Shown: positions 6,010 to 38,366 of the stretch, one piece after another
Layout: every line of letters begins with the position of its first letter
How positions within the stretch are numbered: the stretch's first letter is position 1
Source: Escherichia coli
Lineage (GTDB): Bacteria; Pseudomonadota; Gammaproteobacteria; Enterobacterales; Enterobacteriaceae
DNA length: 64,000 nt
Direction: 5' to 3' (one strand)
Assembly: GCF_030013595.1 (NCBI RefSeq)
Contig: NZ_CP122768.1
Made by a program: the position numbers and the translations under genes
Notes under the pieces: generated by a model
Seen by the model: only the letters and a program-made list of their open reading frames with translations
What the model was told of the DNA's origin: nothing
The model's database searches: none

Positions 6010-8393
6010 AGCATTGTCTCCAGCTCTTCCCTCAGCGCCTTACTGTCAGTAATGAGCTCAGGAACCCTTTCATTTAATGCCTGAAGTCGCCCGGTAAGCC
6101 GTTCCTGCGCCTGCTGATCGCGTTTATGATCTTCAGAGCTCTGAATCAGCGTGTTACGCAGTTGTTCAACTTTCTCCCTGAATGCGCAGAAAAAGGCATC
6201 GATTTCCTGGCGGACGGGCTGGTTAATATCCTGCTCAATGGATGCCTGCAGCTCCCCGAAATATGCCCGGGTCAGTGACATAACTTCCTCTCTGGCCTTG
6301 TTGATATTGATCACGCTGCGACTCACATCCTCGTCATAGTTTTCCCAGCCCAGGTCACTGGTGCCAAACCATCGACAAACGGTTCCCCATACGCCACTCT
6401 GCCGACGGCGACGGGTGACGGTCTCCGTTCTTTCCTCCATAAGCGCACTCAGATTTATTTTTACCGCGAGCCGGGTCTGTAACTGGCTGACTGCCGGAAA
6501 ACTGATTTTTACGGTAAAGCCCTCATCCTCCAGGCGGGCATTGATGCGACCGGCAATGTTTTCTGTGGCGTACAGGGCCGTGCCACGAAAACCTGTTTCA
6601 ATCCCGCTGACGATTTTCTCCAGCTCAGGCCGGAACTGTGCTTCAGCCTCACGGTGCAGGCTGGTCACGGTCGATTCGATTTGCGTCATCAGTTCAAGGG
6701 CTGCCCTGCGATCACTGAATTTTATTTCGGGGCTGTCCGGATCAAAGTCCCGCATCCTGTCATGCTGATTTCCGGTTCCGAAAATATCGTGAAAGAAAGC
6801 GAATGCGTTTCTCTCCCGGGGCTGCGCTGAATTTTCTTCCTCCAGCATTTGCTGTTCTTTGCGTTTACCGCTTCTGAAATAGTCGTTCAGCTCCTCCTCC
6901 AGTGAGGCACAGACCTTCGTCAGTAATTCCCCGGTTTTGGTATTGATGTCCTCCATGGCCATTCTGACATCACCGGTCACCTGATTCTGACATTCCTCAA
7001 TCTCCTGGATATCCGCCAGCAGGCTGGTAATATGCGCCTGTAGTGACTGAATGCTTTGCTGCAGCCCCTGATGACGTAATGACAGATATTCGCTGACATT
7101 TTCTGCATTCTGCATCAGTTTTGCGGCGGCAGAGTCAACCGCCAGTGCCGCCGCTCTGGAATGGGAGCTCTGTATGACTTCCGTTATCAGTTGATCGATC
7201 AGAGATATATTCCAGAGTTTTTCTGCCTTTTTATTTACCTTAGTGCTGTCTTTCCAGTCGTCCTCTTCCACCATAGGTCCGAAAGCTTCCCTGATAAAAT
7301 CATCGACCCAGGCTTCATCAACCGGAAGCGCACCGTTTTTTCGTAACTCATGAAGCGCACGGTTAGCCAGGTACGCCTGACGTGATGAGCCGGGATAAAC
7401 GCGGGAGGCGGGCAGCACATCGCTGTTCAGCATTGCTGGCACCTTCTGGCGTACGGCATCCGCACCATCACCATTGCGATCTTTTTCATCGAATTTATTG
7501 ACCAGCACAAACAGACGACCGGCTGAGACGTCAGCAATGGCATTAAGCTCTTTACGAACCTCCTCATCGGCTTTCGAGTTCATCTGGGTGTAATCCATCA
7601 CCGCCAGCACCGCAGAGGCTTTCTGTAGTTGATCCCGCATCATCATTTCCATCTGTGGTTGTCCGGCTTCATTAGGGCCGGGGGTATCCAGCAGTGTGAG
7701 TGTTCCCTGACATGCATCCATTCCCACCAGGTGGCTGAACGCCACGTCGATCACCGGTAGTTTCTGCACTTCTGCGTATTCGTCAAAAGGAAATTCAGTC
7801 CCCATTGCCGCAGCAAGACGAACCAGGTCATTTAACGATGCCAGTCCGGTAAAGATTTCGTCTTCCCCGTGGTATTCATTTTTAAGCCAGACATCATCCG
7901 CCAGAATATCCAGTAGTTCGCGGGTATCCCCGGTTTGCTGCAGGGACTGTGCGACTTGCTGCCCTGCCGGGGTGGCGAGTTTTTCCTGCAGTGTGATTAA
8001 TAAATTGCGGACGGGCTGAATATGTTCCAGATGGAGGACCGGTTCCGTTTTTCCGGGAACGTGGCGGATCAATGTCGGTACCGAGGTCATGGGGCGGTTA
8101 CGGTTGGGCAGAATTTCCTGCCCCACAATGGCGTTGATGGTGGTTGATTTGCCCGCCTTCATCGTGCCGACCACAGCCAGCACCATCTCCCTGCGGGCGG
8201 TTTTGATTTGTTCGCCCTCCAGCTCCTCAATTCTTTTCAGCGCTTTCCGTTTATCAAAAAGCAGCCCGTTTTCGTTCTTACTGTCAGATAACACATCCGG
8301 CTCATCAACCATTTGCCGGAGCAGATTGATATTCAGTTGCAAAAGCCGGTCGGCTTCATCACAAAGCAGGGCGATGTTCTTTTCGTGCATCAT
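6006..8393 (-). CDS. Dynamin-like GTPase (CrfC/YjdA-like bacterial dynamin)
   Basis: 795-aa ORF; G1 P-loop VVGTMKAGKSTTINAIVG, G3 LLDTPGPNE, G4 VNKFD; long helical C-terminal region; N-terminal block closely resembles my recollection of E. coli YjdA. Confidence 0.75.
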   Translation of the reverse strand: MMHEKNIALLCDEADRLLQLNINLLRQMVDEPDVLSDSKNENGLLFDKRKALKRIEELEGEQIKTARREMVLAVVGTMKAGKSTTINAIVGQEILPNRNRPMTSVPTLIRHVPGKTEPVLHLEHIQPVRNLLITLQEKLATPAGQQVAQSLQQTGDTRELLDILADDVWLKNEYHGEDEIFTGLASLNDLVRLAAAMGTEFPFDEYAEVQKLPVIDVAFSHLVGMDACQGTLTLLDTPGPNEAGQPQMEMMMRDQLQKASAVLAVMDYTQMNSKADEEVRKELNAIADVSAGRLFVLVNKFDEKDRNGDGADAVRQKVPAMLNSDVLPASRVYPGSSRQAYLANRALHELRKNGALPVDEAWVDDFIREAFGPMVEEDDWKDSTKVNKKAEKLWNISLIDQLITEVIQSSHSRAAALAVDSAAAKLMQNAENVSEYLSLRHQGLQQSIQSLQAHITSLLADIQEIEECQNQVTGDVRMAMEDINTKTGELLTKVCASLEEELNDYFRSGKRKEQQMLEEENSAQPRERNAFAFFHDIFGTGNQHDRMRDFDPDSPEIKFSDRRAALELMTQIESTVTSLHREAEAQFRPELEKIVSGIETGFRGTALYATENIAGRINARLEDEGFTVKISFPAVSQLQTRLAVKINLSALMEERTETVTRRRRQSGVWGTVCRWFGTSDLGWENYDEDVSRSVININKAREEVMSLTRAYFGELQASIEQDINQPVRQEIDAFFCAFREKVEQLRNTLIQSSEDHKRDQQAQERLTGRLQALNERVPELITDSKALREELETML

Positions 8394-8500
8394 TCACCTT
8401 TATAAATTCAATAATTCAGAACTGCGGTGAACAGCAATGAGCGTCCTTTCCCATTACTGCATGAATTTTCCTGAAATCGTATTTCCGGGATACCGTATAA

Positions 8501-18389: not shown

Positions 18390-19028
18390 TCAGCGAACCG
18401 TCCATGCCGGGCTGAAATCCTCTTCCTGAAACAGCTCCGTCAGCCCGCTAATCTGTTTCAATCTGAGAACTTCATCCTGGTCCATACCCAGCTCCGTACC
18501 AATGCGTTCATTCGTCCAGCCCAGGCGCGACAGGTCCCTGACAATATCAGACATTGAGGTTATCTGATGTTTGCCCCTGGCCCGGTTATGTCGGATGGTC
18601 GCAGCAATACGTGAGGCCTGTCCCTTTCTCTCCGGATTAATACAGACCACCGGCAGCCAGCCCTTCAGACGTTTTCCCGTACCTGCTTCCCTGCCCAGCA
18701 CCTGGCGATGAAAACCATCCACCACCAGGTAATGGTTCTTTTCCTCAGACACCACCACCGGTTGTGTGAAACCATCTTTCTCCAGTGACTGCTTCAGCAG
18801 TTTCTTCTCACCCGGCGCCATGACATTAGGATTGTAATCATTGGCCACCACCTCATCTGCTTTTACCCACAGCACACAGTCCACTGGCTCATGTGCAAAA
18901 GGACTGACTTCATGAAGCACTCTGCGCAGGTGATTAAGGGCCTGTATGGTCTCTTCTTCTGGTCGTTCCTGGCTGAAGTACTGACGAATCATGTTGCCAA
19001 TTATCTCCGGTGTCACAGAATCCCCCAT
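18390..19028 (-). CDS. ParB-like nuclease-domain protein with DGQHR-type motif (IbrB/DndB-like)
   Basis: 212 aa; YLVVDGFHRQVLGRE (DG-F/Q-HR motif); start overlaps stop region of upstream PAPS-reductase-like gene by 16 nt. Confidence 0.65.
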   Translation of the reverse strand: MGDSVTPEIIGNMIRQYFSQERPEEETIQALNHLRRVLHEVSPFAHEPVDCVLWVKADEVVANDYNPNVMAPGEKKLLKQSLEKDGFTQPVVVSEEKNHYLVVDGFHRQVLGREAGTGKRLKGWLPVVCINPERKGQASRIAATIRHNRARGKHQITSMSDIVRDLSRLGWTNERIGTELGMDQDEVLRLKQISGLTELFQEEDFSPAWTVR

Positions 19029-25388: not shown

Positions 25389-25580
25389 ATGTCAGAAGAT
25401 GTTCCATTACCGAAAGTCAATCAGCGATACAAAGACGATCATGGTGCGCTTGTCACCCTGACCAGTGTTGAGGAAACCCGGGTGGTGTTTATGCAGGACG
25501 GCTATCCGCATCCCTGCATGCGACCGATGTACAACTTTCTGGGAAAATTCAAACCCGAACCCCGGGAAGAAACAGAATAA
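25389..25580 (+). CDS. DUF4222-like small prophage protein
   Basis: 63 aa; pattern RYKDDHGALVTLTSVEETRVVFMQDGYPHPCMRPMYNF fits the recalled DUF4222 consensus. Confidence 0.45.
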   Translation: MSEDVPLPKVNQRYKDDHGALVTLTSVEETRVVFMQDGYPHPCMRPMYNFLGKFKPEPREETE

Positions 25581-25632
25581 AACGAAATCCCTGCCGGCAA
25601 TCACACTACCTGATAGCAGCATAATCCACTTA

Positions 25633-25941
25633 TTAATTCTCATCCCCGGAGACAAGCCCAGAAAACCACTCCGGGTGTTCACTGTATGCCGTGTTCAGCG
25701 CATCCCTGGAAACGTTTATATAAAAGCTGTCCTGCAATTTGCGGGTAACAACTTCTGCCAGGCGATTCCGGTTATCCACCAGTCCGGCATAACCTCTCTC
25801 TGCCAGCCACTCATTCAGTTCATGTTCCAGAGACAGATTGATAATATCATAATCGGACCTTGCCATTCCCGTTTCCTTAGCACATGTTTTCAGGCACGGG
25901 GATAAAGTATAAAGAATGTCATACTGCTGCTGCCAGAGCAA
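25633..25941 (-). CDS. Hypothetical small protein (true start may be the internal Met giving ~77 aa)
   Basis: ORF on same strand as the two downstream hypothetical genes; no motif recognised. Confidence 0.3.
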   Translation of the reverse strand: MLWQQQYDILYTLSPCLKTCAKETGMARSDYDIINLSLEHELNEWLAERGYAGLVDNRNRLAEVVTRKLQDSFYINVSRDALNTAYSEHPEWFSGLVSGDEN

Positions 25942-27628: not shown

Positions 27629-28099
27629 ATGAGTTACTATATGAAAATATACTGGACAAGAAAACGTATTCCTGAACTTTCAGCACTTCCACCTTCATTA
27701 AGAAAGAAAAATTTTACTGACGCATATAATGCAGCATCTTCTCATATCGAATACTGGATAGGTGCTGGCGTCTCATTTATCTCGATGATGATTTTATCCA
27801 GAGTATATGACTTTCTTTTACCCGCCCAAGATACTTTCCCGGGTGATATCATCAGAAGTTTATGTGTTGTGTGTCCATCCATATTAATCTGGTTTCAGTT
27901 TTCGGTATATGTCATGAGGAAATATTACAGACATATTCTGGTGCGAGGAAAAGAAACCGAAACCATTTCAGAAAGGTTGATACGTGAGGCTGATACACGA
28001 GAATATGAACTATGGCGTCCGGTCCGTCGCTTTTTCTCCATTGTTTTCCTCATTGTTCTATTAGGTTGCATTCATTCACTGATAACAACTATAAAATAA
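27629..28099 (+). CDS. Hypothetical membrane protein in AT-rich DNA
   Basis: 156 aa with at least three hydrophobic segments; strongly AT-rich codon usage. Confidence 0.35.
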   Translation: MSYYMKIYWTRKRIPELSALPPSLRKKNFTDAYNAASSHIEYWIGAGVSFISMMILSRVYDFLLPAQDTFPGDIIRSLCVVCPSILIWFQFSVYVMRKYYRHILVRGKETETISERLIREADTREYELWRPVRRFFSIVFLIVLLGCIHSLITTIK

Positions 28100-28336
28100 A
28101 AGTTATGGCTGTTCTGATACAGGAAAATAAACGTTCATTCTATGGTTACCTCTTCCTGTTATATAGAAGAATTTTAAACGACAAGTAAGGGAATATAAAT
28201 GAAAATAACAAAAAATAAAAATGCAACTATAAAAAACAGTCATCAGTCGGCTGCTTTTCAATGTTTACCTTATCATTTTCTGGTAATGCTGCCAACTTAC
28301 TGATTTAGTGTATGATGGTGATTTTAAGGTGCTTGC

Positions 28337-28612
28337 GTGGCTTCCATTTCCATCAGATGTCCTTCCTGCTCCGCTACTGAAGGCGTGGTGCGTAACGGCA
28401 AAAGCACTGCCGGACATCAGCGCTATCTCTGCTCTCATTGCCGTAAAACATGGCAACTACAGTTCACTTACACCGCCTCTCAGCCCGGTAAGCACCAGAA
28501 AATCATTGATATGGCCATGAATGGCGTCGGATGTCGCGCCAGTGCACGCATTATGGGCGTTGGCCTCAACACGGTTTTACGTCACTTAAAAAACTCAGGC
28601 CGCAGTCGGTAA
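28337..28612 (+). CDS. insA: IS1 InsA
   Basis: 91 aa [40 protein letters not shown]... zinc-finger protein. Confidence 0.9.
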
Positions 28613-29034
28613 CCTCGCGCATACAACCGGGCAGTGATGTGATTGTCTGCGCTGAAATGGACGAACAGTGGGGCTACGTCGGTGCTAAATCACGTCAGCG
28701 CTGGCTGTTTTACGCGTATGACAGGATACGGAGGACGGTTGTGGCGCACGTCTTCGGTGAACGCACTCTGGCCACACTGGAGCGTCTTCTGAGCCTGCTG
28801 TCGGCCTTTGAGGTCGTGGTATGGATGACGGATGGCTGGCCGCTGTATGAATCACGCCTGAAGGGAAAGCTGCACGTTATCAGCAAGCGTTACACTCAGC
28901 GCATTGAGCGACATAATCTGAATCTGAGACAACATCTGGCAAGGCTGGGACGGAAGTCACTGTCGTTCTCAAAATCGGTGGAGCTGCATGACAAGGTCAT
29001 CGGGCATTATCTGAACATAAAACACTATCAGTAA
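28531..29034 (+). CDS. insB: IS1 InsB (transposase frame; expressed as InsAB' by frameshift)
   Basis: 167-aa ORF overlapping insA in the -1 frame, classic IS1 arrangement. Confidence 0.9.
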
Positions 29035-29050
29035 GTTGGAGTCATTACCT

Positions 29051-29311
29051 GAGAATAATACCTCCTGGGTAAGTGAGCAGATACTTTCAGCGCCTCCGAA
29101 AGATGTAAATATTCGACTTGGAGTCGGTTCTTTAGAAGGTACAACCGTCTCACATGTTCAGCGATTGCATCATTCGTTAATCGCAGCTGGTTTGGAAAGT
29201 AACCTCACTGTCTATACCGGTGGTCACGATTATGCCTGGTGGCGCGGAGCAATTATTGATGAATTAGCAAATTATAATTGCAGGAAGGTATCAAATAATA
29301 ACTCTGTGTAA
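29051..29311 (+). pseudogene. C-terminal fragment of an alpha/beta-hydrolase esterase (Fes/IroD/IroE-like), truncated by IS1
   Basis: Open frame continues straight out of the IS1 right end; ...LTVYTGGHDYAWWRGAIIDELANY resembles enterochelin-esterase-family C-termini. Confidence 0.35.
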
Positions 29312-29452
29312 AATATCGTTTTATCGTCAGATAACTCTTTCTGCAATATTATTATGGGAGACTATCTCATTTATTTAGTGATGTCCTTCATTTATGTGAT
29401 GAAGGACATTATATTACTCATAACATTTCTCGTTGAAAATTTCAGCAATACG

Positions 29453-30577
29453 CTACAATTGTTTCCCGTTGTTTTTTAATTTTCTCATCAAAACCTCTGC
29501 AATCTCTGCAGGACTGGGTTGTTCAGCCATTTCAGCGGCTACCTGATCTGAACAGAAGCGTAGTGAATCATCATAAAGAAGGCGATTTACCAAATCACTG
29601 GTCAGTCCATGCTTGTCCGGAATAATCCCACACCCACGCTTCGCAACAATTTCTGCATTAACAGAGCGATCTGCACCTTCGCCAAACACAATCTGTGGTA
29701 TTCCACTATACAGCGCTGTCAGGGTATTACCTGCGCCACCGTGATGAATAAATCCATCAGCTCCATTAAGGAATACACCCATAGGTATCCAGTCAACCAG
29801 ACGTACATTTGATGGTAGTTTTCGTAAACCAGTACGAGCATTTATTGCAAGTTGCAAAATGATATCAGCATCAACTTCATTTGCAGAATCCATAACCCAT
29901 GAAATCAGCTCCAGACCATCAACCATTGGTTTTACAGTGCCAAGGCTGATAAGTAAACGTTTCCGATCAGAATCCCTGTCCCACCATGTTTCCTTTACAG
30001 CACCTCCGTTATAAGGAATATATCTCATTGAGATAACCGGTTCTCCAGCATTTTTAAGAATGCTCATACTTGGGGGAGCAACATCAATCCATGCTAAATC
30101 ACATAGTGGACCGCTGACTCCATGCCGCCTGTAAGCATTGCTTAAAGAACGGTTTAACATCTGAATATGGGCAGATGTATGCGCGAATCCAACAGCCAGC
30201 ATCACTGAAGGAATTCTATATTTAGCAGCAACCAATGGGCCTGCCGGATCAAGAGGGGGATAGACTATTAAATCTGGCCTCCATTTTCCTGCAAAATCGA
30301 TGAGGTTATCTGCCATTTCATCGCTAAAAAAAGAGAAATGACCAATAATATTACTTTTTTTCCTCAACTCTTCCTGATGGCGATATCCAGCCTCTGAATC
30401 TAAACCTGGAACTGCATCAAAAACAACCAGTCCAGCTTCTGCTGCTTTATTCGCGAATTTGCCAGCGCTACTAATTACTACATCATGTCCAATTACACGA
30501 AAGGCCTGAGCCAGAGAAATCAATGGGTATAACAAACCGTACAGCGGTGGGCCAATAAAAAGAATACGTTTTCGCAT
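29453..30577 (-). CDS. iroB: Enterobactin C-glucosyltransferase (salmochelin synthesis), orphan copy
   Basis: 374 aa; MRKRILFIGPPLYGLLYPLISLAQAFRVIGHDVVISSAGKFANKAAEAGLVVFDAVPGLDSEAGYRHQE... and GT-B C-terminus HHGGAGNTLTAL match my recollection of IroB along the whole length; no iroCDEN nearby. Confidence 0.8.
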   Translation of the reverse strand: MRKRILFIGPPLYGLLYPLISLAQAFRVIGHDVVISSAGKFANKAAEAGLVVFDAVPGLDSEAGYRHQEELRKKSNIIGHFSFFSDEMADNLIDFAGKWRPDLIVYPPLDPAGPLVAAKYRIPSVMLAVGFAHTSAHIQMLNRSLSNAYRRHGVSGPLCDLAWIDVAPPSMSILKNAGEPVISMRYIPYNGGAVKETWWDRDSDRKRLLISLGTVKPMVDGLELISWVMDSANEVDADIILQLAINARTGLRKLPSNVRLVDWIPMGVFLNGADGFIHHGGAGNTLTALYSGIPQIVFGEGADRSVNAEIVAKRGCGIIPDKHGLTSDLVNRLLYDDSLRFCSDQVAAEMAEQPSPAEIAEVLMRKLKNNGKQL

Positions 30578-31306
30578 TAAAAAAGTCCGTCTTCTGCTTA
30601 CCTGTTTATTTTTCTATCTCTAAGAAAACATAATTAATATTATTTTTATGTGAGCTTATGCACAAAAATAACCAAGTATATTATCTTCTGGTAGAGATTC
30701 AGGATACAGTTTGTAGGAGCTTTCTTTTTTGAACAATGATTTGCAGGACAGTTATGCTAAACTAGCGGAATCAGTATCACAACAATAAATGACTGATCAT
30801 ACCTGAAATTTGAATTAACAGGCATCATGAATGTCAATAGTCTAAGCGGTGACTACTTATATCGCTTGCATAAATACTAAACACTGACTAGAAAAGTATT
30901 GGATAACCCCGTCACTAAAAGTAACGCTTCGGTTATTTGCTCGGAATGTATTAACGCCAAGATTGTTAGCCGTTACGCCTTATATCACTGGCGCTGACAA
31001 ATGTTTCTTTTCTAATTTACTGAACCGGCGCAGACACGCAGGAAAGCACGCCGGCACCGGTGTAATGCCAGTTCTAATCAATAAGAATGGAATGACGAAT
31101 CAGTCAGGAAGGGATAACAACCCGCTGCTGAACGGAAGGTATCAGCAGGAAGATGAACGGGAATATCGCCAGCACCAAGGGCAGGGCCGGGTTCCACAAT
31201 ACCAGCGCTGGCATTTTGCACATTGCCAGCGTACCGGCATTACAACACGTTTCATGCTGCTGCCCCCCAGGATTCCTCGATTCGTTGCTACATCCACTGC
31301 TCTACT

Positions 31307-31504
31307 TCACTTCCACTGCTCCACTTCACTTTTGTACCAGCGGCTGCTGCGCCCCAGTTTGATGGGTTTAGGGAAATGGCCTTCACTGATCAACTTGTAA
31401 AACCATTTGTCGGTCATACCGGTGAAACTGGTGATATAGTTCATGTCGATCAGGGAATTATCGGCACGCAGAAATACGCTGTCGTGGCTTGTTGTAGTCA
31501 ACAT
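31307..31504 (-). CDS. AlpA-family phage regulatory protein (excisionase-like DNA binding)
   Basis: 65 aa; ...YKLISEGHFPKPIKLGRSSRWYKSEVEQW matches the AlpA motif (F-P-K-P-x-K-L-G...W...EV..W). Confidence 0.65.
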   Translation of the reverse strand: MLTTTSHDSVFLRADNSLIDMNYITSFTGMTDKWFYKLISEGHFPKPIKLGRSSRWYKSEVEQWK

Positions 31505-32989
31505 GGTCAGAATGTCCTGTGAGATTTATGAAGATTGTGCGAATGCGGGAAATCTACTGAGCTGTGCTTTCAGAACTGGCCTGTTACGGGATACCAGGGA
31601 TTACCGGCGGGGTAACGGGCTTCCGGATCATACACACCACGATTATCGCGGACAAAATCACTGAACGCCCATATCACCTCTTTAAGTATGTCTTCGCAGT
31701 CCGGTAAATGACGATCCAGCGCCACATCCCGGGTGGTACAGCTTTGATGCGCCCGGTGACACAAAGCCCGGATTGTTCCAGACATCCTGAATCAAACGCC
31801 CCAGATTAGGGGCGTCGAAATATGCCTCTCTGACCATTATATTCCGGCGTATAGGTAGCAGGTCTGAAGTGACAATGCGTCACCTGACGTTAAAAGTCAC
31901 CCAAGATGACCCCAGTGGGGGCAACAAGTATAAAACCGTTTTTTGATTAAGTGGTCGGATATGAAAAGGGGAAGGTTTATGTGAAAAATACCTGTGTTTT
32001 CTTTGAAAACACACAACAGTATCAGGTTATTTATGTTTATACAGTGCGTTCCAAACTGACCTGAATAATTACGCAAGTTGCAACAATAAAACATTTTTGC
32101 CGTAGTGTGAGGTACTCCGGTAAATTGCTTCCCAGGTGCAGACAATGACTAACGAAGAACTACAGGCAATCGCATTATCCATGCTTGAGCGCCAGCGCGA
32201 AAAAGTACACCAGCAACGAGAGTCTTTGCTTAACCCATCTCCATTCACCAGGCCAAAACGATTGGAGCTTGAAGCATTCTTGGACAAATACCCACGGCGG
32301 CTTAAATCAGGCAAAACCAGACCACCAGGCTGATAGCTCACAGTTTGTTCTCCGATTCAATAAAACGGATAAGAACCATCAGCGCGGTAGCGTAAGGCAC
32401 TACAGCGCATTGCTTTACGAGTAATAACAATGGATTTATCACCAGAAGACGCAAAGTTTTTACGAGAACTGCAACATCGTATGCTCAGAGAAGCCATTAT
32501 CGAACAGCAAACGGGCATGAGCGCCATAGACCCATTGCGATACAAACGGGCCTCATCTCCTTTAGTTGACGACAATTCCAATGCGGATAAAACACGTCCA
32601 CCACACTGATTACATTTTTCATTAGCACAGTGGTGTGATGCAGCATACGAGGAAAACCGGATGAATGAGAACAAAATAAAAAGGCTGGAGCAACTGTTAC
32701 AGGCACGCCAACGGGAGTTTGCCACTAAATGGGGACGTGCCGCGCTGCCACATGAACGCCTAACCTATTTTCCACTTGAAGACCTCATTAAAAATAATGG
32801 CAAAAAAATCAGGTCTGATAAGAAACACTTCTTAGAATGCAATGAAGACAAATAACAACAATCTGCATATTGCCACCAACCACAGATGTGGCATCGTTAT
32901 CAGCGCACTTGATTTTCTTTATATCCACTGACGAGTTTGCCGGTCATTCTGGTATCATGCAGATATTTACGGCGTACAAGCACACTAGC

Positions 32990-33540
32990 ATGACATTGTA
33001 ATAAGGCCTGAGCCTAACGCTTTAATGTGTGTCATACACTCAGTGGCGTAATCGTTGACAATATGGTGCATGTAATCGTAAGCGTCCAGCGAAATCCATC
33101 TGGTCATAATCTGAAGCATCCGACAAAGTGGTGTCCACCAAATAAGTGATCTGCGCCCAATATCCTGAGCCGGAACTTTGACAAAGGCCAACGAAAAATG
33201 GGAGCGGATGTTACAGAGTTCCCGGTACAGGGGAAAAGTGGTACCTGTCGCCAGTTCTCCGATCTGTTTAACCGGGAAATTATCTCCTACAGCTTGTCAG
33301 AAAGGTCGGTGATGGAGCATCGTTAATACGATGCTATACGATGCATTCACAGTGCCCGGCCAGAGGATGCCCCGTCGCTGCATATGGATCAGGGTTGGCA
33401 ATATCGAATTGCAGGCTATAGGCAAAGTTAAAGCCCCATGGAGTAGCACAAAATATGCCGCACAAAGGAAACGGTCTGAATAACGCAGTGATGAAGAACT
33501 TCTTCAGCACACTGCTAAAACGCATAGTGATCGAGCGCTG
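32990..33540 (-). pseudogene. IS3-family transposase debris (several frames, both strands)
   Basis: Plus-strand frame ends ...NGLNNAVMKNFFSTLLKRIVIER (IS3-family C-terminus) near 33530; other short transposase-like stretches nearby; no intact ORF. Confidence 0.4.
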
Positions 33541-36205
33541 ATTCTGGCGAACAACTGAACTAATACATCAGAATCTGCATTATGTTAAATAAATATAAAA
33601 AGATGGTTTAAATACCCCGTTACTTTTGACTTACACTATACGGTATCGCATCGTTTAATATTCGCACCGGCCAGATTTTTATTTCTATTAGTTGTCACAA
33701 TACTGAATGCGTACGACCACAGTATTCTGGCTCCTGTGTGGTTATGCTTTAATTCTGCGTTCCGGGCAGATAAGCAGTTGCTTGCAGGAATCCTTCTTGT
33801 GTTAATGTCAGTTCCCCTTTTACCAGTGCTGATTTCCACATTCCGTCCAACAGAGCTTATAGCCTTTCCCTGGATTATAGCATTGTCCGGCTGAAGTTCT
33901 TTTTGAATAATAATAGAAGCACTGCTGGCAGATCCAGTCCGTTTTTCATAACCCACTGTACTGATAACCATAATCTAATCAGTAGAAATTGAGTCGAAAA
34001 TAAGCACTACTCCATACAGGATAATTAGAGGTCAGTTTGATTATTCACAATTCATCATCAGCATTTTCTATTTCTGACGAAATCAATATGAAAATAACCA
34101 TATATGATAATTATTATAATAACGGCTTTAATTGGAATACATATATTACAACGTATTATATATAATTGGTATTCTGGGAACTATATTCTCAAAATACAGT
34201 AGAAACGAGGTATGTTTCTGGTGGAAAGGACAGTGGGATTAAAAAGTAAGAATTGATAAAAAAAACGCCAGCAACACATAGTGCCGGCGGAGGGAATACC
34301 CCATGGAGAAAATGTGATGCCTAGAGCATCATGAATATATAATTAAAAATAGTTAGCGTTGTCAATACTTTCACAAAAATAATTTTCGTAGTATAGAAAG
34401 ATATTTTTATGCATGACCTACCTGAATTTGCTCCGGGTAGAGGTTATAAATAAAAATTGAATCACGACAAACACAATATTCATAGTATGGCGATGCCTAC
34501 GCCAGCAAGAATAGCGCCAATAATATTGGGAATATAATAGACACCAGACGCACAGGCATCTCACTCCTTAACAAACAACAATCAGGATATTTACTTTTAC
34601 CAAGCTAACTGTTTACACCCAAAGTACACACAATTAACCATTCAATAACAAATGGCAATATCCATAGCCATACGACTTTACCTTGTAATGTTCGGTATTT
34701 CTTTATAATTATTCTGGGAAATCTAACATTTATTTTTAAAATCAAATTATCTTGTTGTTTAAAAATAAGTTCACATACTTTATCATCTTCTTCCGCCATC
34801 AACATCTCTGCATACTTAAACATTTCAGAACGTTCCTTTAGCACAGAAGAGTAATTATATGTCCAGTTCCCAGGCAATAATGCTTATGGATATTTAATTC
34901 ATAATTTAGAGAATATTTTGCAATAATATTTGGCAGTATTCAGAAATACCTGAAAAATCATACTATACAGCCCTAGGGAATGGATAAAGATTCTAACAAA
35001 GCATTTCAACAATATATACTTGTTAAAAATCCATATCGAAATGCCGTTGCAGCATTAATATATGCCTCATTCATAAAATGTAAAAGAGCAAGCTCGTACC
35101 AGTAGGGGGGAAATTCATTGACATGTCCTGTCAATACGTACAGAGCCCTGCCATGCTTGCCAGCACGTAACAATTCCGCCCCCAGTAACCAGCGTGTTCC
35201 CTGATTATTCTCAGGGTTATATGTTAGTATTTTATCAATGAGTATAACGGCATCCTGATGACGCTGTAAATGAACATTCGCCAGAATTGCAGCATAAAGA
35301 GCGCAAATGCATATGCCAGATGAGCGTGAATATCAATGATGTCAGGAGCATGTCAGGCAAGACGCCTGAGTTTGTTGACGTAATTTGTTTCGTTTATTTC
35401 ATCACTATCGTATGCGTCAAGAGTTTTTTCAAACTCATCCCGAAATGGGCCAAGCCTGGTTTCAGGAAATAAGAAATACCCTTGGTTATTGTTCACTTAA
35501 AAGTATAATTTGTAATTCAAATCCTGAGCCTGTAAAGCGGGGAGTAACATATTCTATTCTGAAGAGAATAAAAGTCGTGATGCGATGTATCAAGCCCGGA
35601 TTGTAATCCCAGATTAACATAGATCACAAAACAACTTATTCTTCACTAACGTCAAGATAAATATCGTTGTATGCCTTATCACGACTACGAATACCAGCAA
35701 GATACAACTGACATACGGAAAGATACCACGTTTTTTACTCCCGAAAATAACGCTAAAAAGCTACTTCCCCATCGTTTGTCCTTAGTATTGCCAGCGCCAA
35801 CAATGTGGGCTGACATGATAAAGCTGTCTAGGAAATTGTTCGCCTCCTCAGCGGACAATCCAAATGGTGATTGTCTCTGTTAAACGTTTATTTTGAAGGT
35901 CGACTGAATAAGGTGATGACGCTGTAGAATTTTTCACGTGCCACAGAATTTTGAACGCTTTCTCTTACAATATTTCAATGTTTCTATCAGTATTCGCCGG
36001 AAGAAGTCATCGACCAAATCATCCCAGTCGTCTCGCATCACTGACCATTCATGGTTGACATGTGGTGGAAATCCGCTTCTACAGTAACCATTTTTTATTC
36101 GCAAAACCGAACACGCCATACGGATAGCTGTTAACTGGCATGCCGAGGCAGTCGTTATTTATATTTGGTTTTGTCAATAATCTTTATTTTTTGTAAAAGG
36201 CAAAT

Positions 36206-36224
36206 ATAAATTATTCTCATTATT
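36206..36224 (+). promoter_or_regulatory. Candidate Fur box upstream of iha
   Basis: ATAAATTATTCTCATTATT matches the 19-bp Fur consensus GATAATGATAATCATTATC at roughly 12 positions by eye; ~50 bp upstream of the iha start. Confidence 0.4.
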
Positions 36225-36275
36225 GTTTGTATTTGTGTATTGTCTTGCCGGTTAACATGATCGGAGATTAGTAAT

Positions 36276-38366
36276 ATGCGAATAACCACTCTGGCTTCCG
36301 TAGTCATTCCCTGTCTCGGATTTTCAGCCAGCAGCATAGCTGCTGCAGAGGATGTGATGATTGTCTCGGCATCCGGCTATGAGAAAAAGCTGACTAACGC
36401 AGCCGCCAGTGTTTCTGTGATTAGCCAGGAGGAATTGCAGTCCAGCCAGTACCACGATCTGGCGGAGGCTCTGAGATCAGTAGAGGGTGTGGATGTTGAA
36501 AGTGGTACGGGTAAAACCGGAGGGCTGGAAATCAGCATCCGAGGAATGCCAGCCAGTTACACGCTGATACTGATTGATGGTGTTCGTCAGGGCGGAAGCA
36601 GTGACGTGACTCCCAACGGTTTTTCTGCCATGAATACCGGGTTCATGCCCCCTCTGGCCGCCATTGAGCGTATTGAGGTTATCAGGGGGCCGATGTCCAC
36701 ACTGTATGGCTCTGATGCGATGGGCGGTGTGGTGAATATCATTACCAGAAAGAATGCAGACAAATGGCTCTCTTCCGTCAATGCAGGGCTGAATCTGCAG
36801 GAAAGCAACAAATGGGGTAACAGCAGCCAGTTTAATTTCTGGAGCAGTGGTCCCCTTGTGGATGATTCTGTCAGCCTGCAGGTACGCGGTAGCACACAAC
36901 AGCGTCAGGGTTCATCGGTCACATCACTGAGCGATACAGCAGCCACGCGTATTCCTTATCCCACGGAGTCACAGAATTATAATCTTGGTGCACGTCTTGA
37001 CTGGAAGGCGTCGGAGCAGGATGTGCTCTGGTTTGATATGGATACCACCCGGCAGCGTTATGATAACCGGGATGGGCAACTGGGGAGTCTGACGGGGGGA
37101 TATGACCGGACCCTGCGCTATGAGCGAAACAAAATTTCAGCTGGCTATGATCATACTTTCACCTTCGGAACATGGAAATCGTATCTGAACTGGAACGAGA
37201 CAGAAAATAAAGGTCGTGAGCTTGTACGCAGTGTACTGAAGCGCGACAAATGGGGGCTTGCCGGTCAGCCGCGGGAGCTTAAGGAATCGAACCTTATCCT
37301 GAATTCATTACTGCTTACCCCTCTGGGAGAATCTCATCTGGTTACGGTGGGGGGCGAGTTTCAGAGCTCGTCCATGAAAGACGGAGTTGTCCTTGCCAGC
37401 ACAGGTGAAACTTTCCGGCAGAAAAGCTGGTCGGTATTTGCTGAGGATGAGTGGCATCTCACGGATGCACTTGCGCTGACTGCGGGCAGCCGCTATGAAC
37501 ATCATGAGCAATTCGGGGGACACTTCAGTCCGCGTGCATATCTGGTCTGGGATGTGGCAGATGCCTGGACGCTGAAAGGCGGTGTGACCACGGGATATAA
37601 GGCACCCAGAATGGGGCAGCTACATAAAGGGATTAGTGGTGTGTCCGGGCAGGGAAAAACAAATCTACTTGGTAACCCCGACCTGAAGCCGGAAGAGAGC
37701 GTCAGTTATGAGGCTGGGGTGTATTACGATAACCCCGCCGGTCTGAATGCCAATGTCACAGGTTTTATGACTGACTTCTCCAACAAGATTGTCTCTTATT
37801 CCATAAATGATAACACCAATAGCTATGTAAACAGCGGAAAGGCCCGGTTGCACGGTGTGGAATTTGCCGGCACATTGCCGCTGTGGTCAGAGGATGTCAC
37901 GCTGTCACTGAATTACACCTGGACCCGAAGTGAACAACGTGATGGTGATAACAAAGGTGCGCCGCTGAGTTATACCCCTGAACACATGGTGAATGCGAAA
38001 CTGAACTGGCAGATCACCGAAGAGGTGGCATCATGGCTGGGTGCCCGTTATCGCGGGAAAACACCACGTTTCACCCAGAATTATTCGTCACTGAGCGCTG
38101 TACAGAAGAAAGTGTATGATGAGAAAGGAGAATACCTGAAAGCCTGGACGGTGGTGGATGCAGGTCTGTCGTGGAAGATGACGGATGCCCTGACGCTGAA
38201 TGCTGCGGTGAATAACCTGCTCAACAAGGATTACAGTGACGTGAGCCTGTACAGTGCCGGTAAGAGTACGCTGTATGCCGGTGATTACTTCCAGACGGGA
38301 TCATCAACAACAGGATATGTGATACCTGAGCGAAATTACTGGATGTCGCTGAACTATCAGTTCTGA
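36276..38366 (+). CDS. iha: TonB-dependent outer-membrane siderophore receptor / adhesin (IrgA homologue adhesin)
   Basis: 696 aa; signal peptide; plug-domain and 22-strand barrel features; C-terminal ...YWMSLNYQF aromatic end; length and sequence match recalled Iha. Confidence 0.8.
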   Translation: MRITTLASVVIPCLGFSASSIAAAEDVMIVSASGYEKKLTNAAASVSVISQEELQSSQYHDLAEALRSVEGVDVESGTGKTGGLEISIRGMPASYTLILIDGVRQGGSSDVTPNGFSAMNTGFMPPLAAIERIEVIRGPMSTLYGSDAMGGVVNIITRKNADKWLSSVNAGLNLQESNKWGNSSQFNFWSSGPLVDDSVSLQVRGSTQQRQGSSVTSLSDTAATRIPYPTESQNYNLGARLDWKASEQDVLWFDMDTTRQRYDNRDGQLGSLTGGYDRTLRYERNKISAGYDHTFTFGTWKSYLNWNETENKGRELVRSVLKRDKWGLAGQPRELKESNLILNSLLLTPLGESHLVTVGGEFQSSSMKDGVVLASTGETFRQKSWSVFAEDEWHLTDALALTAGSRYEHHEQFGGHFSPRAYLVWDVADAWTLKGGVTTGYKAPRMGQLHKGISGVSGQGKTNLLGNPDLKPEESVSYEAGVYYDNPAGLNANVTGFMTDFSNKIVSYSINDNTNSYVNSGKARLHGVEFAGTLPLWSEDVTLSLNYTWTRSEQRDGDNKGAPLSYTPEHMVNAKLNWQITEEVASWLGARYRGKTPRFTQNYSSLSAVQKKVYDEKGEYLKAWTVVDAGLSWKMTDALTLNAAVNNLLNKDYSDVSLYSAGKSTLYAGDYFQTGSSTTGYVIPERNYWMSLNYQF

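What the first reader, a model, noticed from the sequence alone, without database searches (positions are those of the whole stretch)
32136..32855. Three tandem small plus-strand ORFs (59-65 aa) in AT-rich DNA near alpA
Seen: ORFs at 32136-32333, 32430-32609 (below the track cutoff; MDLSPEDAKFLRELQHRML...) and 32661-32855, same strand, short spacers, basic/helical character. Inference: possible small regulatory or toxin-antitoxin-like proteins in a prophage-regulatory neighbourhood; equally could be chance ORFs.
Basis: inference. Interest (0 to 1): 0.25.

Follow-up and report, generated by a model that had tools for sequence, protein, structure and literature searches.

The report
Small-protein genes in a decayed satellite fragment
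The three small reading frames are real but partly decayed copies of one uncharacterised small-protein gene family that normally sits, on the opposite strand, inside the regulatory region of E. coli phage satellites; here they survive in a broken satellite fragment within a pathogenicity island.

Summary
The three ORFs are exactly where stated. The window is the tellurite-resistance/adherence island of pathogenic E. coli (100% identical to UMNK88).

- **ORF1** (likely start ATG 32145, 62 aa) belongs to a small-protein family. The family has an N-terminal helix, a variable linker and a C-terminal motif, FALEDF..KYPRRLK..RPPG-stop.
- **ORF2** is a paralog that lost this motif through a 99-nt in-frame deletion.
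- **ORF3** is probably a distant paralog (weak evidence).

In intact Gram-negative PICI/P4-like satellites, family members lie between the antirepressor gene and the isrK/C4 immunity RNAs, with one to three + strand small ORFs per element. They always sit on the strand opposite the satellite operon and end at a conserved intrinsic terminator. They are embedded antisense in a 330-605-aa ORF built like phage P4 eta/kil.

The + frame has the lowest pN/pS of the six frames (0.41). Synonymous codon choice also keeps the opposite frame open (0 stops observed, about 13.5 expected).

The window copy is a relic. The immunity RNAs, icd and the terminator are gone, the eta-like frame is broken, and sister copies carry nonsense and frameshift mutations.

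ORF1 was already published as ribosome-profiling candidate OGC51 in EDL933. A toxin-antitoxin reading is not supported, and the protein function is unknown.

The parts
32145..32333 (+). ORF1: an intact member (62 aa) of the small-protein family with the C-terminal motif FALEDF..KYPRRLK..RPPG. The longest ORF starts at GTG 32136. It is the published candidate OGC51.
   Evidence: ORF. AGGTG 6 nt before ATG 32145. Family profile E 6e-29 (profile includes ORF1). 19 representative relatives among 1.84e9 proteins. pN/pS 0.41 in the + frame. Identical to OGC51, which has RNA-seq and ribosome footprints in EDL933.
32430..32609 (+). ORF2: a paralog with an internal 99-nt in-frame deletion that removed the FALEDF..KYPRRLK helix. 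It keeps the N-terminal helix and the terminal KTRPPH.
   Evidence: Alignment to the 92-103-aa full-length form in L002 (6281/6314-6592) and to P0036. The family profile scores P0036 at E 1.6e-7 but window ORF2 only at E 1.6. Two nonsense codons in L020/L021 and a 6-nt deletion in L023.
32661..32855 (+). ORF3: probably a diverged paralog with a C-terminal extension (YFPLEDLIKNNGKKIRSDK aligns with FALEDFLKKYPRRLKSGK). Good Shine-Dalgarno sequence (GAGGA, 8 nt before the ATG).
   Evidence: Second-best of 1221 window ORF segments against the family profile, E 0.02, model positions 7-58. BLASTP to ORF1 finds nothing, and E 0.17 to the L002 ORF2' C-terminus. Annotated as WP_001004881. Frameshifted in L022/L024. 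No diverged copy in 5426 genomes.
31935..32135 (.). Conserved non-coding block upstream of ORF1, shared with intact satellites. It is the presumed divergent promoter/operator region and contains the palindrome TGTGTTTTC-AAA-GAAAACACA at 31993-32013. Homology with the satellites stops at about 31935.
   Evidence: Alignments. Palindrome. In L002/L003 the same block lies directly upstream, on the - strand, of isrK/C4. No consensus sigma-70 promoter was found above chance.
32069..32341 (-). 90-aa minus-strand ORF (WP_001303898, the 'mother gene' of OGC51). It is a fragment of the eta-like read-through frame, not an independent gene.
   Evidence: Same relative frame to ORF1 as the eta-like ORFs have to all 14 + ORFs in 7 satellites. 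Its translation aligns with the Cys/Ser/Arg-rich middle part of the 343-605-aa ORFs. pN/pS 0.65 versus 0.41 for the + frame. The preprint's HHblits hits are 'Ash family', 'Icd-like' and 'AntA' long ORFs.
32357..32725 (-). 122-aa minus-strand ORF: a second fragment of the same eta-like frame, antisense to ORF2 and part of ORF3.
   Evidence: Same frame as the 90-aa ORF. Within the three-ORF span this frame is interrupted by stop codons occupying 32357-32359 and 32765-32767.
32936..33191 (-). Decayed remnant of the conserved N-terminal domain of the eta-like ORF (DYMHHIV motif).
   Evidence: tblastn of L002 eta residues 23-76 hits 33095-32936 in two pieces on different frames, 56% and 48% identity, E 2e-6. 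68-aa ORF at 32985-33191.
32920..32950 (+). Site of the lost + strand terminator. An 18-bp deletion at 32934 removed what remained of the hairpin.
   Evidence: GGCGACC-N-GGTCGCCTTTGTTTT is present on the + strand downstream of the last small ORF in 8 satellite loci. Alignment of remnant copies.
31307..31504 (-). alpA-like helix-turn-helix gene. It belongs to a different fragment, because it lies beyond the homology break at about 31935 and is in the wrong order for one intact satellite.
   Evidence: Pfam Phage_AlpA E 5.4e-10. About 40% identity to satellite AlpA proteins. In intact satellites alpA lies on the other side of the small ORFs.
33150..33514 (+). IS (DDE transposase) pseudogene fragment that replaces the antA/Bro gene side of the satellite.
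   Evidence: PGAP annotation of the identical UMNK88 sequence: L001 13951-14315, which is the window coordinate minus 19199.

Best explanation
The three ORFs are tandem paralogs of one uncharacterised small-protein gene family. That family belongs to the immunity ('Bro') zone of Gram-negative phage-inducible chromosomal islands (PICIs, P4-like satellites).

**In an intact satellite (shown).**
- The - strand carries int, alpA, an antA/Bro-type gene, the isrK and C4 immunity RNAs, an icd/kil-like gene and the primase operon.
- One long - strand ORF starts at the stop of the antA/Bro gene, runs through the RNA genes and ends at the icd-like stop. Phage P4 eta/kil has the same anatomy.
- Between the antirepressor gene and the immunity RNAs, on the + strand, lies a mini-operon of one to three small ORFs. 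It starts at a conserved block and ends at a conserved intrinsic terminator. At least one ORF in each satellite is a family member, and some satellites also carry an Arc-like ribbon-helix-helix gene.
- The two strands are co-constrained. The small proteins are under amino-acid-level selection, and their synonymous codons keep the opposite frame free of stops.

**How it probably works (inferred).**
- The eta-like ORF only needs to stay open. In P4, translating eta protects late-promoter transcripts from Rho-dependent termination.
- The + mini-operon is expressed while the satellite is quiescent, when the - strand of this stretch is silent. Convergent, translated read-through silences it after induction.
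- Its helical, probably dimeric proteins with basic tails act as quiescent-state regulators or adaptors alongside the Arc-like repressor.

**In this window (shown).** The module is a fossil inside the tellurite-resistance/adherence island.
- The immunity RNAs, icd, the primase linkage and the terminator are gone, and the eta-like frame is broken.
- ORF2 is internally deleted. ORF3 is found only in copies of this remnant.
- ORF1 is intact and, according to a preprint, is still transcribed and bound by ribosomes.
For: **Identity of the window.** It is 100% identical to E. coli UMNK88 and lies in the ter/iha island. The three-ORF block is present in 671 of 5426 complete E. coli genomes.

**The family.** A profile search of 1.84e9 representative proteins found 19 members. 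They show conservative substitutions (RRLK/RKMR/RRIK; ALEDF/AIEDF/ALDAF) and a conserved C-terminal RPPG followed by the stop.

**Position.** Members lie on the + strand between the antA/pRha gene and C4/isrK in L002, L003, L006, L007, L009, L010-12, L016 and L017. Arc-like (phrog_228, E 2.5e-6) and phrog_949/DUF3950 (E 1e-27) genes sit in the same + strand unit.

**Terminator.** The + strand terminator is conserved in 8 loci.

**Coding strand.** In the C-terminal block (22 codons, 11 sequences) pN/pS is 0.41 in the + frame, 0.65 in the eta frame and above 1.1 in the other four frames. The bootstrap P that the eta frame is not higher is 0.009.

**Co-constraint.** All 14 + ORFs in 7 satellites share one relative frame with the eta-like ORF. 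Reshuffling synonymous codons gives 13.5 eta-frame stops against 0 observed (0 of 2000 simulations).

**P4 comparison.** P4 has a 214-aa ORF that overlaps the end of vis and spans isrK and C4. PMC10111431 summarises the eta/kil anti-termination role and the presence of CI/seqA homologs in PICI Bro genes.

**Expression.** ORF1 is OGC51 in EDL933: RNA RPKM 109/95, footprint RPKM 37/77, and a vanadate overexpression phenotype.

**Decay in the window.** No C4/isrK is present. The eta frame contains stops. The terminator is deleted. ORF2 has the 99-nt deletion.
Against: **Function.** The protein function is entirely inferred. There are no Pfam, NCBIfam, PADLOC, PDB or Foldseek matches. The AlphaFold model is only helix-linker-helix.

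**Strength of the selection signal.** It is moderate. In the N-terminal block the + and eta frames cannot be separated (0.39 versus 0.45), and the pairwise comparisons are not phylogenetically independent.

**Promoter.** No consensus promoter was found for the + unit.

**Distribution.** It is very narrow, essentially Escherichia. Nothing credible turned up in 100,044 species genomes.

**Remnant copies.** Among copies of this remnant, substitutions are not concentrated at third codon positions. ORF2, ORF3 and the ORF1 stop codon are each knocked out in some strains, so the window copies may have no function.

**ORF3.** Its membership rests on E 0.02 in a small database plus its position.

**OGC51.** It was not recovered with the preprint's conservative thresholds. 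From my own knowledge, not tested here, EDL933 carries two copies of this island, which would blur read mapping.
Confidence: 0.72

Rival explanations
1. The real feature is on the minus strand. The 90-aa and 122-aa ORFs, fragments of an 'Ash/Icd-like/AntA' protein, would be the genes, and the + strand ORFs would be shadows: the antisense frame that shares third codon positions with a real gene tends to stay open.
For: PGAP annotates the 90-aa - ORF in UMNK88 and EDL933. Long - ORFs of 330-605 aa are conserved as open frames in all intact satellites. The - frame also shows pN/pS below 1 (0.65 and 0.45). The + ORFs sit in exactly the 'shadow' frame.
Against: The + frame has the lowest pN/pS of all six frames. 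The - translation here is rich in Cys, Ser and Arg, and differs completely between satellites that carry different + genes. The + unit has its own Shine-Dalgarno sites, a conserved stop after RPPG and a conserved terminator. It also includes Arc-like and phrog_949 genes, families built from proteins of phages and their satellites. The only Pfam hit of the long ORF (Phage_ASH) falls exactly on the isrK and C4 RNA genes. In the window the - frame is broken. ORF1 has ribosome footprints.
Confidence: 0.1
2. All three window ORFs are now functionless relics (pseudogenes in the making) of a dead satellite. Any transcription or ribosome occupancy would be noise.
For: The satellite context is destroyed. 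ORF2 lacks the core motif. Sister copies carry nonsense mutations, frameshifts or a lost stop, and substitutions are spread evenly over the three codon positions. ORF3 has no diverged relatives.
Against: ORF1 is intact in the large majority of copies. Intact clusters hold 36 and 19 member sequences (one seen on 352 contigs), against 1-8 for frameshifted forms. It is transcribed at about 100 RPKM with footprints and shows an overexpression phenotype. In L020 the three ORFs diverge less (about 1.6%) than the spacers and upstream block (about 4.8%; counts).
Confidence: 0.3
3. The ORFs form a toxin-antitoxin or other small defence module.
For: They are small, basic, helical proteins in a mobile element. 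An Arc-like ribbon-helix-helix protein, a common antitoxin fold, accompanies family members in some satellites. A cell-division inhibitor (icd/kil-like) is encoded on the opposite strand nearby in intact elements.
Against: There is no hit to any TA or defence family. The three ORFs are paralogs, not toxin plus antitoxin. The window, L002/L003 and L016/L017 have no ribbon-helix-helix partner. ORF1 was included in the preprint's overexpression screen, and the reported phenotype is a vanadate-specific one.
Confidence: 0.05

Closest known systems
OGC51, an 'embedded antisense overlapping gene candidate' of E. coli O157:H7 EDL933 (Zehentner et al., bioRxiv 10.1101/2020.11.18.388249)
   Same: Identical sequence to ORF1 (the 65-aa form starting at the GTG) and the same antisense 'mother gene', WP_001303898. 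The preprint reports RNA-seq, ribosome footprints and a vanadate overexpression phenotype.
   Different: In the passages and tables read here, the preprint treats it as an isolated overlapping pair of hypothetical genes. It does not place it in a satellite immunity region, does not link the 'mother gene' to an eta-like read-through ORF, and its supplementary files do not contain ORF2 or ORF3.
Phage P4 eta/kil nested genes with the CI immunity RNA (summarised in PMC10111431)
   Same: In the related satellites the long - ORF overlaps the end of the preceding gene, spans the isrK/seqA-like and C4/CI-like RNAs, and ends as the kil/icd-like gene. P4's 214-aa ORF at 8168-8812 has the same anatomy.
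   Different: P4's eta is short and has no + strand genes inside it. The satellite versions are 330-605 aa and host one to three antisense small ORFs. In the window this frame is broken and the RNAs are absent.
Gram-negative PICI 'Bro zone' (PMC10111431)
   Same: Same gene order: int, alpA, Bro/antA-type gene, C4/isrK hits, then primase/SSB.
   Different: In the passages of that paper read here, the description does not mention a convergent + strand small-gene unit. The window holds only a fragment of such a zone.
P22 immI (arc-ant) and P1 immI (c4-icd-ant) immunity regions
   Same: The satellites combine an Arc-like repressor, an antA/AntB antirepressor-type gene, a C4 antisense RNA and an icd-like gene. 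That these parts match the two phage immI regions is from my own knowledge, not tested here.
   Different: The ORF1 family has no counterpart that I know of in P22 or P1 immI. The arrangement (antisense inside a read-through ORF) also differs. No Arc-like gene is present in the window.
PHROG phrog_21027 (unknown function)
   Same: The 58-aa paralog of L011 matches its C-terminal half at E 1.4e-5, and one family member matches at E 0.035.
   Different: Window ORF1-3 do not reach E 0.1 against it, and the PHROG family carries no annotation.

Membership tests
Small-protein family defined here (FALEDF..KYPRRLK..RPPG) | C-terminal motif [KR]FALE[DE]F..K[YC]PRR[LM]K..K.RPPG immediately followed by the stop codon | tested here: met
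   ORF1: KRLELEAFLDKYPRRLKSGKTRPPG then stop; profile E 6e-29 (the profile includes ORF1). ORF2 does not meet it: the motif was removed by a 99-nt deletion and only KTRPPH remains. ORF3 is inconclusive: YFPLEDLIKNNGKKIRSDK, E 0.02, with a 10-residue extension.
Small-protein family defined here (FALEDF..KYPRRLK..RPPG) | N-terminal amphipathic helix (EELQxIALSILERQREK type) | tested here: met
   ORF1 EELQAIALSMLERQREK; ORF2 LRELQHRMLREAIIEQQ; ORF3 IKRLEQLLQARQRE. AlphaFold places a helix at residues 3-29, with block-mean pLDDT of 83-95 over that stretch.
Small-protein family defined here (FALEDF..KYPRRLK..RPPG) | Located on the strand opposite the satellite operon, in the fixed relative frame to the eta-like ORF | tested here: met
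   All three window ORFs have the same frame relation (offset 1) to the residual - frame as the 14 ORFs in the intact satellites.
Intact Gram-negative PICI / P4-like satellite | C4/CI-type immunity RNA and its isrK/seqA-type target next to the region | tested here: not met
   Rfam at permissive threshold on 28000-37000 found only Esr41. The RNAs are present in L002, L003, L007 and P4.
Intact Gram-negative PICI / P4-like satellite | Contiguous int, alpA, Bro/antA, icd-like and primase genes in one orientation | tested here: not met
   Only an alpA-like gene is nearby, and it lies on the wrong side, beyond a homology break at about 31935. An IS fragment replaces antA. DUF4222 and PerC genes elsewhere in the window suggest further scattered pieces.
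P4 eta/kil-type read-through ORF | One uninterrupted ORF from the end of the upstream gene through the immunity RNAs to the kil/icd stop | tested here: not met
   In the window the frame has stop codons occupying 32357-32359 and 32765-32767, with more outside the ORF span, and the N-terminal domain is in another frame. The feature is met in L002, L006, L009, L011, L016, L017 and P4.
Toxin-antitoxin system | Two different partner proteins, at least one with a recognisable toxin or antitoxin domain | tested here: not met
   No Pfam, NCBIfam or PADLOC hit. The ORFs are paralogs of one another.
Toxin-antitoxin system | Toxicity of one partner that is neutralised by the other | not testable with these tools
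   This needs expression experiments. For ORF1 the preprint reports only a vanadate-specific phenotype.
Translated gene (any) | Ribosome occupancy or a detected protein product | not testable with these tools
   Taken from the literature only, and only for ORF1: footprint RPKM 37/77, RCV 0.56 in EDL933. Neither ORF2 nor ORF3 appears in that preprint's supplementary files.

The most novel reading that the evidence does not exclude
The + strand mini-operon (family members with or without an Arc-like repressor, ending at its own terminator) is an unrecognised regulatory module of Gram-negative PICIs. It is truly dual-coded with the eta-like anti-termination ORF.

Convergent transcription would make the two strands mutually exclusive, giving a switch between two states:
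- quiescent, with the + strand proteins made;
- induced, with the late promoter driving the translated eta-like ORF and then the primase operon.

Selection would act simultaneously on amino acids on one strand and on mere openness of the frame on the other.
Probability: 0.3. Interest if true: 0.65.

Novelty: new variant of a known kind. Interest (0 to 1): 0.42.

Why it matters
**Annotation.** The same DNA is annotated in three different ways in RefSeq: the - strand 90-aa ORF, ORF1 to ORF3, or ORF1 and ORF3 only. This work shows which strand carries the protein signal.

**A published overlapping-gene pair explained.** The 'mother gene' of OGC51 is a fossil of a P4-eta-like read-through frame, not an independent gene.

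**Satellite biology.** The work points to a conserved, undescribed convergent small-gene unit in the immunity zone of E. coli satellites. It is a clean natural case in which one strand is selected for protein sequence and the other only for the absence of stop codons. This can be tested directly with strand-specific nonsense mutations.

**For the window itself the result is modest.** These are mostly decaying leftovers inside a pathogenicity island.

Tried and rejected
**Domain and structure searches that found nothing**
- Pfam, NCBIfam and PADLOC on the three ORFs and on the antisense ORFs gave no hits, apart from one marginal ZorE match (E 0.022) to the L002 form of ORF2.
- PHROGs on the family gave only marginal hits.
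- A PDB profile search and Foldseek on the AlphaFold model found nothing. The model is helix-linker-helix and too simple to be informative.

**Ideas tested and dropped**
- The window region might itself hold a C4/CI-type RNA. Rejected: Rfam found none there.
- ORF3 might be a clear paralog of ORF1 by BLASTP. No alignment was found; only a profile gives a weak link.

**Searches for relatives**
- The genome-contig scan for relatives in other species returned one E. coli-like contig inside a Collinsella MAG and one spurious archaeal hit. A first attempt failed because the alignment was too diverse.
- The viral-contig scan gave only 3 loci.
- tblastn of ORF3 against phage genomes found no match.

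**Regulatory signals**
- Consensus promoter scans were no better than shuffled sequence, and aligning the upstream regions did not reveal a convincing -35/-10 pair for either strand.

**Limits on selection tests**
- I looked for a selection signal inside the island lineage. Divergence is too low and mutations are spread over all codon positions.
- I looked for diverged ORF3 copies. None exist in complete genomes.

**Not followed up**
- The pseudogene at 31570-31840 showed no similarity to the satellite proteins tested.
Full report
**1. The observation**

The three ORFs are exactly as described: 32136-32333 (65 aa, GTG start), 32430-32609 (59 aa) and 32661-32855 (64 aa). All are on the + strand, with spacers of 96 and 51 nt.

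ORF1 more likely starts at ATG 32145. An AGGTG lies 6 nt upstream of that ATG, and every homolog begins MT(N/D)EEL.

The region is only mildly AT-rich, at 43.8% GC.

The alpA-like gene is real (Pfam Phage_AlpA, E 5.4e-10) and lies at 31307-31504 on the opposite strand.

ORFs of this length are common here: 72 ORFs of at least 30 aa overlap 7 kb. Their existence alone therefore means little.

**2. Where the window comes from**

The sequence is 100% identical to E. coli UMNK88 and about 99.9% identical to O157:H7, O145, O26 and O104:H4 strains. It lies in the island that carries the ter genes, iha, IS elements, cah and an IroB-like glycosyltransferase.

The three-ORF block occurs in 671 of 5426 complete E. 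coli genomes.

RefSeq annotates this same DNA inconsistently:
- UMNK88 has the 90-aa minus-strand ORF 32069-32341 plus ORF3.
- Strain 2014C-3057 has all three + ORFs.
- Other strains have ORF1 and ORF3 only.

**3. Related sequences reveal the context**

At about 75% DNA identity, the stretch 32108-32569 matches satellites integrated next to yicC (L002, L003).

Those elements have the gene order int, a hypothetical gene, alpA, an antA/AntB gene, about 1 kb of sequence, an Icd-like gene, small genes, DUF4222, primase, SSB, ProQ/FinO and PerC, all on one strand. Rfam finds the isrK and C4 immunity RNAs just before the Icd-like gene.

This is the organisation of Gram-negative PICIs, whose 'Bro zone' is described in PMC10111431.

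The homologs of ORF1 and ORF2 lie in the roughly 1-kb stretch, on the opposite strand. The same holds in every further element recovered:
- L006 and L007, from viral contigs
- L009
- L010, L011 and L012
- L016
- L017

**4. A protein family**

A profile of ORF1 homologs was searched against 1.84e9 representative proteins and found 19 members. They share three features:
- an N-terminal helix (EELQxIALSILERQREK or FAEQRRLLLQSIISRQQEK);
- a Pro/Ser/Gln-rich linker of variable length and sequence;
- a C-terminal motif [KR]FALE[DE]F..KYPRRLK..K.RPPG, followed directly by the stop.

Substitutions within the motif are conservative (RRLK, RKMR, RRIK, KKMR; ALEDF, AIEDF, ALDAF).

Satellites carry one to three + strand small ORFs in this zone, at least one of them a family member:
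- Two tandem paralogs in L016 and in L017.
- In L011, a family member, an Arc-like ribbon-helix-helix gene and a second paralog.
- In L006, L007 and L009, a ribbon-helix-helix gene followed by a family member.

The ribbon-helix-helix genes hit phrog_228 'Arc-like repressor' (E 2.5e-6), phrog_949 (E 1e-22 to 1e-27) and DUF3950.

Assignment of the window ORFs:
- **ORF1** is a canonical member.
- **ORF2** is about 70% identical in its N-terminal half to the 92-103-aa form in L002 (P0036, itself a family member at E 1.6e-7). A 99-nt in-frame deletion has removed its FALEDF..KYPRRLK segment.
- **ORF3** is weakly linked. BLASTP sees nothing, but the family profile ranks it second of 1221 six-frame ORF segments in the window (E 0.02, model positions 7-58).

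**5. Which strand codes?**

The minus strand of this zone is a single long ORF in intact satellites:

| Locus | Length of minus-strand ORF |
|---|---|
| L002 | 515 aa |
| L003 | 343 aa |
| L006 | 388 aa |
| L009 | 382 aa |
| L010/L011 | 605 aa |
| L016 | 517 aa |
| L017 | 330 aa |

In the antA-carrying elements it starts by overlapping the stop of the antA-type gene. Except in L003, where it stops inside the C4 RNA just short of the icd-like gene, it runs through the RNA genes and ends at the Icd-like stop.

Phage P4 itself has the same anatomy. Its 214-aa ORF at 8168-8812 overlaps the end of vis/orf88 and spans isrK (8615-8692) and C4 (8420-8507). This ORF is eta, with kil nested at its end.

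According to the literature summarised in PMC10111431, translating eta prevents premature termination of late-promoter transcripts. That Rho is the terminating factor is from my own knowledge, not from the passage read. Such an ORF only needs to remain open.

Four observations favour the + strand as the protein-coding one:

1. In the 22-codon C-terminal block of 11 sequences, pN/pS is 0.41 in the + frame, 0.65 in the eta frame and 1.1-1.6 in the other four. The bootstrap P for the difference is 0.009. The N-terminal block does not discriminate (0.39 versus 0.45).
2. The minus-strand translation of this part is rich in Cys, Ser and Arg. It changes completely between elements that carry different + genes.
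3. The + unit ends at a conserved intrinsic terminator, GGCGACC-N-GGTCGCCTTTGTTTT, present in 8 loci.
4. The unit includes Arc-like and phrog_949 genes, families built from proteins of phages and their satellites.

The two strands are nevertheless co-constrained. All 14 + ORFs in 7 satellites sit in the same relative frame to the long ORF. Reshuffling their synonymous codons produces on average 13.5 stops in the long ORF, against 0 observed (0 of 2000 simulations).

The only Pfam hit of the long ORF, Phage_ASH, covers exactly the isrK and C4 RNA genes.

**6. State of the window copy**

- Homology to the satellites stops at about 31935, immediately beside the conserved upstream block.
- C4, isrK and icd are absent.
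- The eta-like frame survives only as the 90-aa and 122-aa ORFs. Within the ORF span it has stop codons occupying 32357-32359 and 32765-32767, with more outside.
- The eta N-terminal domain is a frame-shifted remnant at 32936-33191.
- An IS fragment replaces the antA side.
- The + strand terminator has decayed, and in this lineage an 18-bp deletion cuts it.
- The nearby alpA belongs to another fragment, because it lies on the wrong side for a single satellite.

Sister copies of the remnant show ongoing decay:
- two nonsense codons in ORF2 (L020, L021);
- a frameshift in ORF3 (L022, L024);
- a lost ORF1 stop codon (L024);
- a 6-nt deletion in ORF2 (L023);
- substitutions spread over all three codon positions.

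ORF3 has no diverged copy in any complete genome.

**7. Published evidence**

ORF1 is identical to OGC51 of Zehentner et al. (bioRxiv 10.1101/2020.11.18.388249), one of 216 antisense overlapping gene candidates in EDL933. The reported values are:
- RNA-seq RPKM 109/95;
- ribosome-footprint RPKM 37/77, RCV 0.56;
- expression in five of twelve conditions;
- an overexpression phenotype in sodium vanadate.

It was not recovered with the preprint's conservative thresholds. Its 'mother gene' is the 90-aa minus ORF. The preprint's own HHblits table lists 'Ash family', 'Icd-like' and 'AntA/AntB' long proteins as relatives of that ORF, which fits the eta-like interpretation given here.

**8. Mechanism**

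Shown:
- the family exists;
- its fixed position and orientation;
- the terminator;
- the dual-strand constraint;
- the P4-eta-like anatomy of the opposite ORF;
- the decay of the window copy.

Inferred:
- The + unit is expressed in the quiescent satellite and shut off by convergent, translated read-through after induction.
- Its proteins act as regulators or adaptors together with the Arc-like repressor. They have a long helix at residues 3-29, a short helix at 41-48 and a basic tail (mean pLDDT 79.5).

I found no similarity to any characterised protein. The functional statement is therefore low-confidence, about 0.25. The structural and evolutionary statement is high-confidence.

**9. Verdict**

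- The 'regulatory neighbourhood' idea is partly right.
- The toxin-antitoxin idea is not supported.
- 'Chance ORFs' is rejected for ORF1. It is replaced by 'decaying paralogs' for ORF2, and probably for ORF3.
- The finding in the window is a relic of modest interest. The more interesting result is the conserved antisense small-gene unit embedded in the eta-like ORF of intact satellites.

Noticed in passing
window 34257-34330 (-): A full-length match to the EHEC small RNA Esr41 (Rfam RF02676, 103.4 bits against a gathering score of 102, E 8e-20), about 1.4 kb to the right of ORF3.
   Followed up: no
L002 5524-5823 (-); also L010/L011/L016 'Phage_ASH' genes: The Pfam family Phage_ASH (PF10554) matches residues 364-463 of the 515-aa ORF. 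That is exactly the DNA of the isrK and C4 RNA genes. The family may therefore largely be a translation of RNA genes lying inside eta-like ORFs. PGAP 'ash family protein' pseudogene calls follow from it.
   Followed up: partly
L002 5365-6912, L006 1124-2290, L009 4361-5509, L011 868-2685, L016 3064-4617, L017 3532-4524 (all -): ORFs of 330-605 aa run from the antA/Bro gene through the antisense of real + strand genes and through two RNA genes to the Icd-like stop. Synonymous codons of the 14 embedded + ORFs avoid creating stops in this frame (0 observed, 13.5 expected).
   Followed up: yes
L002 6659-6687, L003 6293-6321, L009 5256-5284, L010 5895-5923, L011 2432-2460, L016 4304-4332, L017 4857-4885 (+): A conserved + strand intrinsic terminator (GGCGACC-loop-GGTCGCC-TTTGTTTT) lies inside the coding sequence of the N-terminal domain of the minus-strand ORF. 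The window has an 18-bp deletion at this spot, at 32934.
   Followed up: yes
window 31993-32013: A perfect 9-bp inverted repeat, TGTGTTTTC-AAA-GAAAACACA, in the conserved block upstream of ORF1. It is imperfect in L002/L003. It could be an operator.
   Followed up: no
window ~31935: Sharp end of homology with the satellites, next to a conserved AGTATA (TATACT on the - strand), which could be the -10 element of the leftward promoter. In the window, the sequence to the left is a pseudogene (31570-31840) followed by alpA, so a satellite promoter may now read into alpA. This is pure inference.
   Followed up: no
window ~25450-25640 and ~17400-18400 (from L001 6252-6443; L008 828-1762): Further satellite-type genes are scattered in the island: a DUF4222 gene, and a PerC-family regulator next to IbrB/PAPS-reductase (IbrA-like) genes. 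This suggests several satellite fragments were built into the island.
   Followed up: no
L020/L021 (UPEC 26-1, EC03), L022/L024 (O104:H21, O22:H8): The ORF1-3 block, together with the IS fragment and the downstream hypothetical gene, also occurs outside the ter island context. It sits next to fbpC in L020/L021 and next to IS66 remnants in L022/L024, at about 97% identity.
   Followed up: partly
L018 2804-2992: A family member (P0028, 62 aa) sits alone between a porin gene and a molybdopterin oxidoreductase operon in a metagenome contig, with no satellite genes nearby. It may be another isolated remnant.
   Followed up: no
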